From assembly GCA_951406725.2 (NCBI GenBank), contig OX597840.1, forward strand, positions 33,418,001 to 33,482,000: a stretch of 64,000 nucleotides of DNA, given 5' to 3'. The stretch's first letter is position 1. Each line of letters begins with the position of its first letter. This DNA is from Octopus vulgaris. Taxonomy: Eukaryota. A model generated the notes under the pieces. It was not told where the DNA came from and did no database searches. It saw nothing but the letters and a program-made list of their open reading frames with translations. Shown here one piece after another: positions 44,217 to 63,200 of this stretch. Both the position numbers and the translations under genes were made by a program.

Positions 44217-44882
44217 CTTTTGACAAGGAGAATGGACAGTTCCATTTCTCCCCCTCCACCTCTCCCGTACCAAACACCTACCCCCCTGTTTACACACACA
44301 TACACACACACACACACGCATACACGCAGACACTCACACACACTTTACACGTTCCTCAAACATATATATACACATATATACACCCACGCATTCGAGCAAC
44401 ATCCACTACACAACAACTGCAACAATATAACAGCAACAACAACAACAACTACTATACTACTACTACTACTACTACTACTACTACTACTACTACCAGTACT
44501 ACTACTACTACTACTACTACTACTACTGATGCTATACAAACACACATACATATATACATACGCATACACATATACACATAAACATACACACATGTGTAAG
44601 TACATAGTAACTAACATGCATTGTATAACGATAACAACTACTACTACTATTACTACTACTACTACTATTACTACTACTACTACTACTACTACTACTACTA
44701 CTACTACTACTACTACTACTACTACTACTACTACTACTACTACTACTACTACTACTATAACAAGTCAGCGAACACCTATCCATCCGTCCACCACCCACCC
44801 ACCCACGAACTCCCTCAATCACATTCTTTCTTTTCTCTTCCTTTTCTTTCTTTTTATTTGTATTTTTAAACGCGAATGTCAC

Positions 44883-44936
44883 GCCCACTAAAAGTACTAA
44901 GCCGTGTGCTAAGGACATTGGCAAAAGCGGAGGCAT
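44883..44936 (-). CDS. putative first coding exon (signal peptide MPPLLPMSLAHGLVLLVG)
   Basis: ATG at 44936 and GGC|GTGACA donor. Spliced to 44201-44216 it gives MPPLLPMSLAHGLVLLVGGLSNA, a hydrophobic core ending in a small-residue S-N-A cleavage motif. Confidence 0.4.
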
Positions 44937-60200: not shown

Positions 60201-63200
60201 TGCTGAAGGTGCCAATCAGTGAGACTGAACCCGTAACCATTCAGTTGGGAAGCAAGTTGATGGAATTAAAAAAACTTTTATGAGGTTTTTTTTTTAGGTT
60301 TCATCCAATTTTATGCACCAAATGACCCAGTTTTCAAGCCATCACGTCATAACGTCACTGTGATAATTCTTAAAGGGGATTCTTTTAGGCGGAAGCGTGG
60401 CTTTGTGGTAAGAAGCTTGCTTCTTAACGACACAGATCCGGGTTCAATTCCAATTTGTGGCTCCTGTGTCCTCTTGTATTATGTAAAAATAAAATAAAAT
60501 AAAAGTGAAAAGCAATTCTGTATTTAAGGGAGACCTGCACAAAAGGGAGGCTGTTGTTAACAACAGAAGTGGTTAGAGCTGGCGGTGGTGACTCTGGTGG
60601 TGGTGGTGGTGGTGGTGGTGGTGGTGATGGATACGGTGCACTGAGGTGTGATGGGTGGTGTTGTTCTTATGGTATTGGTGATGGTAGCGGCGGTGGTCAC
60701 TGTCGTGCTGACGCTCTGGTGGTGGAGGTGGTGCTGGAATGGTGCCGCCTACTTTAGTATTTGCTGAAGCAGTTTGGAACGTGTGTGTGTGCCTGACTCT
60801 GTGTGACGATGTGTGTGGTGCATACGTGTGTGTGTGTGATGTGTGTGTGTGTGTGTGTGTGTGTGCGTGCGTGTGTGCTGTTAGTTCCGAATTGGTATTT
60901 TATCCATTCATTCTTGGAGCAGATGTTTCTTCCTTAGTAATGAAGAATTTAGTGTTTCTACTATGAAATTCTTTCTTACTTTTCAGTCAAAGTACTAAAA
61001 GACTTAGTATCCTTTTGGTCATTGCTACAATTTTGGTAGTCACTGTTTGGTTGGTATTGGTATCTTGGCTTTAGTATAGATCTGGTGTCGCTACGATGGT
61101 CAAAGAGTAGTGTCCACTCATTGGTCAAACTGACCATTGCATGCCTCTGGTTTTCCCAATGACCTTAGCATAGTTCTTAGTACTTTAGTGGGCGTGACAT
61201 TCCAGTTCAAAAAAGAAATAAGGAGAGACTTTTAACTGAGATTTGGTAGCTCTAGTTTCTCGAGGGAGTAGATTGGAAGTATTTTTCGAACATCCAAGTT
61301 TCGGGAACGTAAACACACTAACACAGGCCGTCAAGTGGTTGTGGAAGAAAAACAAAAACAGAATGCCACAGACACTCATACATACACACACACACACATA
61401 CACACAGACTCACACATACACGCACGTACACACGGAAATGGACCGCACGTGCGAGCGAGTATATCTATACGTACATTGCATACATACATACATACATACA
61501 TACATACATACATACATACATACATACATACATACATACATACATACATACATTCATACATACATACATACATATATACATACATACACATATATATATA
61601 TATATATATATATATATATATATATATATATATATATATATATATATATACATATAGATATATATATATATATATATATATATACTACCATTTCAGCCAC
61701 TGGTCATTCGGATACATAAGACAGCTAAAAACAACCACGTGGACTCTGTTGAGAGTAGTAAGAAACAATTATGAACTTTTTTATTACATTTAACTTTTAA
61801 AAATATTTTTGATAAGGTTCGTTTTTTCAAGAAGAACCGAAACATGTAAAATTTCTAAGAAAATTAAAATTAACTTATATAGTGGCGTTTTCAAACTTCT
61901 TTTTTTATAAATATATACCCACTCGTATACGATCTACACTTATTATAAATATATATATATATACATACATACATACATACATACATACATACATACATAC
62001 ATACATACATACATACATACATACATACATATTTACGACAATCTTGTTTCAGTTTCTGTCTATCAAATCTATTCTCCACTCGGAAGGTTTTGGTGGGCTC
62101 GAGATACTTGCTGAAGGTGCCAATCAGTGTGACTGAACCCGTATCCATTTAGGTGAGAAGTATGTTGATGGTATTAAAAAACTTTTATGAAGGTTTTTTT
62201 TAGGTTTCATCCAAATTTGATGCACCTTAATGAACCAGTTTTCAAGCCCTCACATCATGACGTCACTGTGATAATTCTTAAAGGGGATTCTTTTAGGTGC
62301 AAACGTGGCTGTGTGGTAAGAAGCTTGCTTCTCAACGACATAGATCCGGGTTCAATTCTAATTTGTGGCTCCTGTGTCCTCTTGTATTATGTAAAAATAA
62401 AATAAAATAAAAGTGAAAAGCAATTCTGTATTTAAGGGAGACCTGCACAAAAGGGAGGCTGTTGTTAACAACAGAAGTGGTTAGAGCTGGCGGTGGTGAC
62501 TCTGGTGGTGGTGGTGGTAGTGGTGGTGGTGGTGGTAGTGGTGGTGGTGGTGGTGGTGGATACGGTGCACTGAGGTGTGATGGGTGGTGTTGTTCTTATG
62601 ATAGTGGTGATGGTGGTGGTGGTGGTTGTCACTGTCGTGTTGACGCTCTGGTGGTGGAGGTGGTGCTGGAATGGTGCCGCCTACTTTAGTATTTGCTGAA
62701 GCAGTTTGGAACGTGTGTGTGCCTGCCTCTGTGTGATGTGTGTGTGTGTGTGTACGTGTGTGTGTACGTGTGTGTGTGTGTGTGTGTGTGCGTGCGTGTG
62801 TGCTGTTAGTTCCGAATTGGTATTTTATCCATTCATTCTTGGAGCAGATGTTTCTTCCTTAGTAATGAAGAATTTAGGGTTTCTTTCTACTATGAAATTC
62901 TTTCTTACTTTTCAGTCAAAGTACTAAAAGACTTATTTAGTATCCTTTTGGTCATTTCTACAAGTTTGGTAGTCAGTATGGTTGGTTGGTATTGGTATCT
63001 TGGCTTTAGTATCGATCTGGTGTCGCTACGATGGTCAAACAGTAGTGTCCACTCATTGGTCAAACTGACCATTGCATGCCTCTGGTTTTCCCAATGACCT
63101 AAGCACAGTTCTTAGTACTTCAGTGGGCGTGACATTCCAGTTGAAAACAGAAATAAGGAGAGACTTTTAACCGAGATTTGGTAGCACTAGTTTCTCGAGG

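What the first reader, a model, noticed from the sequence alone, without database searches (positions are those of the whole stretch)
44870..63135. Seven-copy module with a near-invariant ~75-nt core containing a perfect estrogen-response-element palindrome
Seen: the core TTTAGTATAGATCTGGTGTCGCTACGATGGTCAAACAGTAGTGTCCACTCATTGGTCAAACTGACCATTGCATGC differs by 0-2 nt among copies, while the next ~45 nt differ at ~8 positions between copy groups. It holds GGTCA-nnn-TGACC, an extra GGTCA half-site and an overlapping CCAAT, and a GGGCGTG box follows ~55 nt away. The only change in the palindrome is in the spacer. Known: the Octopus ER orthologue binds EREs and activates constitutively. Inference: an amplified nuclear-receptor enhancer/promoter cassette at the 5' end of the hidden gene. 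Alternatively a structured RNA (CGAUGGUCA/UGACCAUUG stem).
Basis: partly seen in the sequence, partly recalled or inferred. Interest (0 to 1): 0.7.

Follow-up and report, generated by a model that had tools for sequence, protein, structure and literature searches.

The report
Seven-copy conserved promoter-like DNA module
A 150-base DNA module lies seven times in 18 kb of what is likely an octopus genome and keeps a 94-base core almost unchanged while its flanks drift apart; it is likely a duplicated promoter, and its estrogen-element-like palindrome is present but untested as a receptor site.

Summary
There are seven copies (two inverted) in three lineages. The invariant block is 94 nt (6 variable columns, no indel). 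A 31-nt spacer varies at 13 positions, then a 24-nt block around the GC box varies at 2. Core conservation survives permutation (p 5e-5 to 2e-3). Contigs of four DNA-like runs with four organism labels hold the module, and the c4 lineage recurs in three of them. Copies also swap 100-150-nt patches, so conversion contributes.

The palindrome is a perfect 13-bp ERE with T/A flanks, not the 15-bp consensus. It counts as one event, not seven, and is at most a fifth of the core. No gene was found: no protein or Rfam match, and no fold better than shuffles.

Best reading (0.40): a locally amplified, selected Pol II promoter module (GC box, NF-Y-type CCAAT, GGTCA sites) reading towards the C/A-rich side. 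ER control specifically is about 0.12. Rivals: a small RNA gene behind an snRNA-type promoter (0.22), conversion or a mobile-element relic (0.20), a 29-codon micropeptide gene (0.15). Nothing about function is shown.

The parts
44877..45026 (+). copy c1 (lineage A): GC-box block, spacer, 94-nt core (44933-45026); strand = reading from the GC-box side
50990..51139 (+). copy c2 (lineage A); core 51046-51139
55843..55991 (-). copy c3 (lineage A); core 55843-55936
57275..57425 (-). copy c4 (lineage B); core 57275-57368; carries the spacer change in the palindrome
59662..59810 (-). copy c5 (lineage C); core 59662-59755
61051..61199 (-). copy c6 (lineage C); core 61051-61144, spacer 61145-61175, GC-box block 61176-61199
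62986..63134 (-). copy c7 (lineage C); core 62986-63079
55915..55927 (.). 13-bp GGTCA-n3-TGACC palindrome (c3 as example; also 44942, 51055, 57347, 59734, 61123, 63058), T/A flanks, overlapping a CCAAT box
47255..47403 (+). second conserved block ('far block') of c1
51635..51791 (+). far block of c2
55237..55425 (-). far block of c3; six GGTCA half-sites, all on one strand
45112..45646 (+). tandem array of a ~148-bp unit beside the core of c1
56790..57205 (-). the same ~148-bp array beside the core of c4
59040..64000 (-). recent tandem units holding c5, c6, c7 with shared flanks and repeat fragments (89-94% alike); a further unit appears to begin at the window's edge

Best explanation
The seven copies are local duplicates of one 150-bp module with an almost invariant 94-bp core, and it is likely a selected RNA polymerase II promoter that would start a short or non-coding transcript towards the C/A-rich side. 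Shown: the copies, their three lineages, the two conserved blocks at a fixed distance (55-57 nt from box start to core), the motifs, and patchy exchange between copies. Inferred: an Sp/KLF-type factor would bind the GC-box block, NF-Y the CCAAT box, and a GGTCA-reading nuclear receptor (ER is one candidate among several) the palindrome and half-site; a weak TATA-like word about 28 nt before the end of the core would place the start just past the core; selection keeps the core while gene conversion homogenises neighbouring patches. No transcript and no target gene were found.
For: Core conservation is significant and patterned: 6 of 94 variable columns in the core, 13 of 31 in the spacer, 2 of 24 in the box, 46 of 108 and 11 of 24 in the two flanks. 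Contigs of four DNA-like runs (four organism labels, three studies; X1 may be the source of the window) cover the module. Of the 40 substitution rows shown (17 more not shown), 1 falls in the 75-nt core, 5 in the 94-nt core, 12 in the spacer, 0 in the box, 7 in the tail and 16 in the other flank. The c4-type base in the palindrome spacer, with c4-type flank, recurs in X2, X3 and X4, so the lineages predate those splits. An X4 contig over 62 core bases has one difference from c6 (likely c6's private base; that row is not shown), while X4's spacers differ from lineages A and C of the window. Three promoter-type motifs exceed local shuffles in 150 bp (patterns recalled): 13-bp palindrome p <= 0.002, NF-Y-type CCAAT p 0.004-0.02, GC box p 0.009-0.065. 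The far block holds six more GGTCA (0.6 expected, p 0.0003, keeping dinucleotides; 3.4 expected, p 0.037, keeping trinucleotides). RNA folds are no better than shuffles.
Against: 94 contiguous invariant bases without an indel are unusual for a cluster of factor sites (general knowledge) and fit an RNA or a reading frame as well. The sequence downstream is low in complexity and full of indels, with no shared splice donor or poly(A) signal, so no product is visible. The box's own conservation is weak after scan correction (p 0.028, 0.19, 0.48, 0.029). Motifs were chosen after seeing the sequence. Any 6-bp palindrome with a 3-nt loop occurs in 3% of shuffles. The TATA-like word is non-consensus and is lost in c7. 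Conversion is demonstrably active. The four organisms look closely related, so the cross-species test has little power.
Confidence: 0.4

Rival explanations
1. A family of undescribed ~90-nt small RNA genes with an snRNA-type promoter: the 24-nt box would be the proximal sequence element bound by SNAPc, polymerase II would start about 61-63 nt from its first base, and the core would be the RNA. The palindrome would be the RNA's first hairpin.
For: The layout is a conserved 24-nt block, a variable spacer of fixed length (31-33 nt) and a continuous invariant block. The human U6 PSE spans -65 to -48 (PMC9652321, passages and one section). Insect Pol II snRNA promoters have a 21-24-bp PSEA and a second element at positions 30-37 (PMC1761439, passages), where this spacer also keeps a part-conserved word. 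Three of the four private core changes fall in predicted loops.
Against: No Rfam match at gathering score in the window, nor at E <= 10 over the c5 core; only chance-level hits near c3. Fold z -1.1 to +0.8. 0 of 31 pairs change on both sides and 2 are broken in one copy each. No Sm site, C/D boxes or T-run at the end of the core on that strand (sequence). No mollusc PSE was available for comparison.
Confidence: 0.22
2. No specific function: a relic (for example a solo LTR or other mobile-element end) amplified by local duplication, whose core is simply where recent gene-conversion tracts overlap.
For: Mosaic copies: c1 is c4-like on one side (1 of 93 and 3 of 59 differences) and identical to c2/c3 on the other (0 of 56 and 0 of 55); c2 and c3 are identical over core and box but differ at 20 of 82 next door. 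c1/c2 and c3 form inverted arms. The wider module begins TGT and ends ACA like an LTR (resemblance recalled).
Against: The c4-type palindrome spacer base has not been converted away in three other organisms, and no organism-wide fixed change in the 75-nt core is listed although spacers differ. All copies in the window lie within 18 kb. No target-site duplication, primer-binding site or polypurine tract was seen by eye.
Confidence: 0.2
3. A micropeptide gene family: an ATG in good Kozak context 7 nt inside the core opens a frame whose first 29 codons fill the core exactly, with the GC box and a CCAAT box directly upstream as promoter.
For: The frame is open in all seven copies (30-55 aa); only 2 of the 6 variable columns change a residue, p 0.019 against the 21% silent share. 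There is no indel in the 29 codons. The low number of silent differences between lineages is tolerable (P 0.03-0.25 for flank rates 0.30-0.15).
Against: The p value is not corrected for choice of frame; four of six changes in one phase has p about 0.3 (hand calculation); the antisense frame shares those third positions. C-termini are frameshifted between copies. No relative was found in the protein search, Pfam or the Atlas, though such short frames are often uncalled.
Confidence: 0.15
4. An antisense guide RNA for 18S rRNA helix 44: two adjacent words of the core match the two strands of that helix in the right order.
For: In 42 fetched loci with eukaryotic 18S, the 8-nt word is in all 42 (by design of the search) and the 9-nt word lies in the helix-44 region in 5 of 42.
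Against: The second site is variable among eukaryotes; no octopus 18S was available; no snoRNA boxes fit; short words match by chance.
Confidence: 0.03

Closest known systems
Estrogen response element (13-bp GGTCAnnnTGACC; 15-bp consensus with A/T flanks; PMC2853111)
   Same: Perfect 13-bp core in all seven copies; the one change is in the spacer; mollusc ERs including O. vulgaris bind the consensus ERE and are constitutive (PMC2529310, passages).
   Different: T/A flanks; overlaps a CCAAT box; sits in 94 invariant bases; binding untested. In human cells only 51 of 2310 perfect cores were bound in that study.
TATA-poor Pol II promoter with GC box and NF-Y CCAAT box (motifs recalled)
   Same: Both motifs present at a fixed distance in every copy.
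   Different: Far longer continuous invariance than such promoters usually show; amplified seven times in both orientations; no downstream gene found.
snRNA-type (SNAPc/PSE) small RNA genes
   Same: Conserved ~24-nt block about 60 nt before a continuous conserved body; multi-copy cluster.
   Different: The body matches no Rfam family and has no Sm site or supported fold; PSE identity untested.
Solo LTR or other mobile-element end (resemblance recalled)
   Same: About 330-nt homologous module with TG...CA-like ends and promoter motifs.
   Different: Clustered rather than dispersed in this window; uneven conservation; no target-site duplication seen; no repeat library was available.

Membership tests
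Estrogen response element | 13-bp GGTCAnnnTGACC core | tested here: met
   7 of 7 copies
Estrogen response element | 15-bp consensus flanks (A...T) | tested here: not met
   flanks are T...A in 7 of 7; consensus from PMC2853111
Estrogen response element | bound and activated by ER in the cell | not testable with these tools
   needs EMSA, ChIP or reporter
Pol II promoter (GC box + NF-Y) | motifs present beyond local chance | tested here: met
   p 0.004-0.065; patterns recalled and chosen after seeing the sequence
Pol II promoter (GC box + NF-Y) | open chromatin and a mapped transcription start | not testable with these tools
   no ATAC or CAGE data
snRNA-type gene | conserved element at about -65 to -40 from the start of the conserved body | tested here: inconclusive
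   position fits; conservation p 0.03-0.48; no mollusc PSE found
snRNA-type gene | body belongs to a known small RNA family or has a covarying structure | tested here: not met
pre-miRNA | stable ~60-nt hairpin with long stem | tested here: not met
tRNA or type-2 Pol III gene | cloverleaf and canonical A and B boxes | tested here: not met
   ARAGORN 0 genes; the B-box-like word misses two consensus positions (by eye, consensus recalled); a T4 run does follow the core on the G/T-rich strand in 7 of 7
Micropeptide gene | open frame with excess of silent changes | tested here: inconclusive
   4 of 6 silent, uncorrected p 0.019
Solo LTR | match to a dispersed LTR family and target-site duplication | not testable with these tools
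   no genome held, no repeat library; no duplication seen by eye

The most novel reading that the evidence does not exclude
The cluster is an undescribed octopus family of ~90-nt non-Sm small RNA genes driven by an snRNA-type promoter, kept near-invariant across three old paralog lineages and several species and missed by Rfam.
Probability: 0.2. Interest if true: 0.7.

Novelty: new member of a known kind. Interest (0 to 1): 0.4.

Why it matters
If it is a promoter, it gives a ready-made test object: three natural lineages of one module in a group whose promoters are hardly mapped. If octopus ER binds it, it would be a candidate native target for a constitutive mollusc ER; the ER listings I saw and the one paper read in passages used consensus or vertebrate elements. 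If it is a small RNA or micropeptide family, it would be a new cephalopod gene class. If conversion alone explains it, it is ordinary. None of these is shown.

Tried and rejected
Own-genome search: no genome held, so genome-wide copy number is untested. Summed contig depth peaks over the core in all four runs, but it is no copy number. RNA runs: no RNA holder listed; this says nothing on expression.

Rfam: none in the window at gathering score, chance-level hits near c3 (12) and in the far block, none over c5 (29). tRNA: none. Sliding folds of three units gave no strong hairpin in the core. Protein searches of three frames found no relative within the length ranges searched; of 12 frames scanned by Pfam, the 6 in or beside the module had no family (57); Atlas gave no usable hit. 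Exact core words are absent from metagenome and viral contigs. A search for a similar box upstream of U2-like words gave 120 loci, none a real U2 by my filter and eye. The 18S motif was absent from viral contigs and present in 42 genome-contig loci.

Considered by eye and dropped (features recalled): vault RNA, Y RNA, SL RNA, H/ACA and C/D snoRNA, tRNA-Sec, hammerhead, Helentron, Drosophila Ohler motifs. ACTAA excess in the modules does not survive correction for all 5-mers by a hand estimate.

Literature: ten searches listed no description of this element; I saw listings and abstract starts only, apart from the papers cited. One razor-shell U1 paper was not held. Earlier scan findings: none.

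Full report
Setting. The window is microsatellite-rich animal DNA (203 tandem arrays) with many short interspersed repeats. No genome is held. I found no host protein gene in the window, only mobile-element fragments.

Observation. The palindrome occurs seven times, all between 44,942 and 63,070, against 0.10 expected. The alignment confirms the core. It has 4 variable columns of 75, each private to one copy; pairs differ by 0-3; the next 55-57 nt differ by 8-13 between groups. The groups are A (c1-c3), B (c4) and C (c5-c7). c1 and c2 are inverted relative to the rest.

Anatomy. Read from the GC-box side, each copy has a 24-nt block, a 31-33-nt spacer and a 94-nt core, with 55-57 nt from box start to core. 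Variable columns among all seven: core 6 of 94, spacer 13 of 31, box 2 of 24, flanks 46 of 108 and 11 of 24. Beyond the core, homology runs on for 200-700 nt of C/A-rich sequence with many indels. c1 and c4 share a 148-bp array. c1-c3 share a second, nearly identical block of about 135 nt with six GGTCA half-sites. c5-c7 lie in recent tandem units, and another unit seems to start at the window's edge.

Is the conservation real? For five trios of lineage representatives, the best 75-column window beats permutations at p 5e-5 to 2e-3. The box is only suggestive (p 0.028, 0.19, 0.48, 0.029). Conversion is active: c1 is c4-like on one side of the core and c2/c3-like on the other. Four DNA-like runs with four organism labels from three studies hold the c6 stretch (X1 may be the source). 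Laid at 80% likeness, 1 of the 40 substitution rows shown falls in the 75-nt core, 12 in the spacer and none in the box; 17 rows are not shown. The c4 variant recurs in X2, X3 and X4. The lineages therefore predate those splits and the core has not drifted as a homogenised block, which favours selection. The organisms look close, so this test is modest.

The ERE. The 13-bp core is perfect, but the flanks are T/A. The 15-bp consensus has A/T flanks, which add affinity, and only 51 of 2310 perfect human cores were bound in one study (PMC2853111, passages). O. vulgaris ER binds the consensus ERE and is constitutive (PMC2529310, passages; the primary 2006 paper was seen only in its reference list). 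By composition a perfect core is expected 0.028 times in this window, and about 1,700 times in 2.7 Gb (size recalled); the seven copies count once. Within the module it is rare in shuffles (p <= 0.002), as are an NF-Y-type CCAAT (0.004-0.02) and, marginally, the GC box (0.009-0.065) (patterns recalled). These motifs cover well under half of the invariant bases.

RNA or protein? Neither strand folds better than shuffles. The consensus fold has no pair changed on both sides (the one lies outside the core, in a 2-bp helix). Rfam and ARAGORN are blank or at chance level. The layout does recall snRNA-type genes: human U6 PSE at -65 to -48 (PMC9652321) and insect PSEA plus PSEB (PMC1761439); no mollusc PSE could be had. 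An ATG 7 nt inside the core opens 29 conserved codons, with 4 of 6 changes silent (uncorrected p 0.019), but tails are frameshifted and no relative exists in the searches made. Two other frames also had no relative. A two-word match to 18S helix 44 is a weak lead: the second word is there in 5 of 42 fetched 18S loci.

How it most likely works. Shown: local duplication, inversion, patchy exchange, a two-block conserved unit. Inferred: the unit is a selected promoter on which GC-box, CCAAT and GGTCA-reading factors start transcription towards the C/A-rich side (0.40; ER as the factor about 0.12 overall). Rivals: small RNA gene 0.22, conversion or relic 0.20, micropeptide 0.15, rRNA guide 0.03. 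These odds are my judgement, not computed.

Novelty. Ten literature searches listed nothing on this element; the library lacks most subscription papers, and one supplement of PMC9699675 was not searched. It is best filed as a new member of a known kind, a conserved multi-copy cis-regulatory module, and not as a proven ERE enhancer. Interest 0.40; the small-RNA reading would deserve 0.7.

Noticed in passing
window 44877-45195 and the six other modules, C/A-rich strand: ACTAA occurs 5-9 times per ~310-nt module against about 1.3 (dinucleotide) or 2.5 (trinucleotide) in shuffles; it resembles the STAR/QKI or branch-point word (recalled). Found after the fact and not significant over all 5-mers by a hand estimate.
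   Followed up: partly
window 47255-47403, 51635-51791, 55237-55425: A second block nearly identical in c1-c3, although the DNA between it and the core differs strongly; six same-strand GGTCA half-sites; no Rfam match.
   Followed up: partly
window 4925-5180, - strand: An open frame of about 80 codons starts at an AAAATGGCG word typical of gene 5' ends (recalled); only a weak low-complexity Pfam hit. Possibly the first exon of a gene running out of the window to the left.
   Followed up: partly
window 26895-27345 and 43181-43645: A 460-bp segment present twice at 90% identity, unrelated to the module.
   Followed up: no
window 19089-19654: Minisatellite of 8-bp-type units, 35 copies of a 16-bp period.
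   Followed up: no
window 12598-14333: Tandem array of a 486-bp unit built from interspersed-repeat pieces, 3.6 copies.
   Followed up: no
window 28462-28812, 40824-41726, 34141-34890, 9900-11060: Mobile-element fragments: mariner-type transposase (Pfam Transposase_1), a zf-RVT-bearing non-LTR piece, and two further decayed pieces judged by eye.
   Followed up: partly
window 32078-32150: A perfect inverted repeat with arms of about 30 bp.
   Followed up: no
window 56720-56765: A strong short hairpin (z -5.65) in one unit of the c4 array, a variant of a weaker hairpin shared by all modules.
   Followed up: no
L121-L162: 42 stretches in bacterial genome records carry eukaryotic 18S rDNA, that is contamination of those assemblies.
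   Followed up: no
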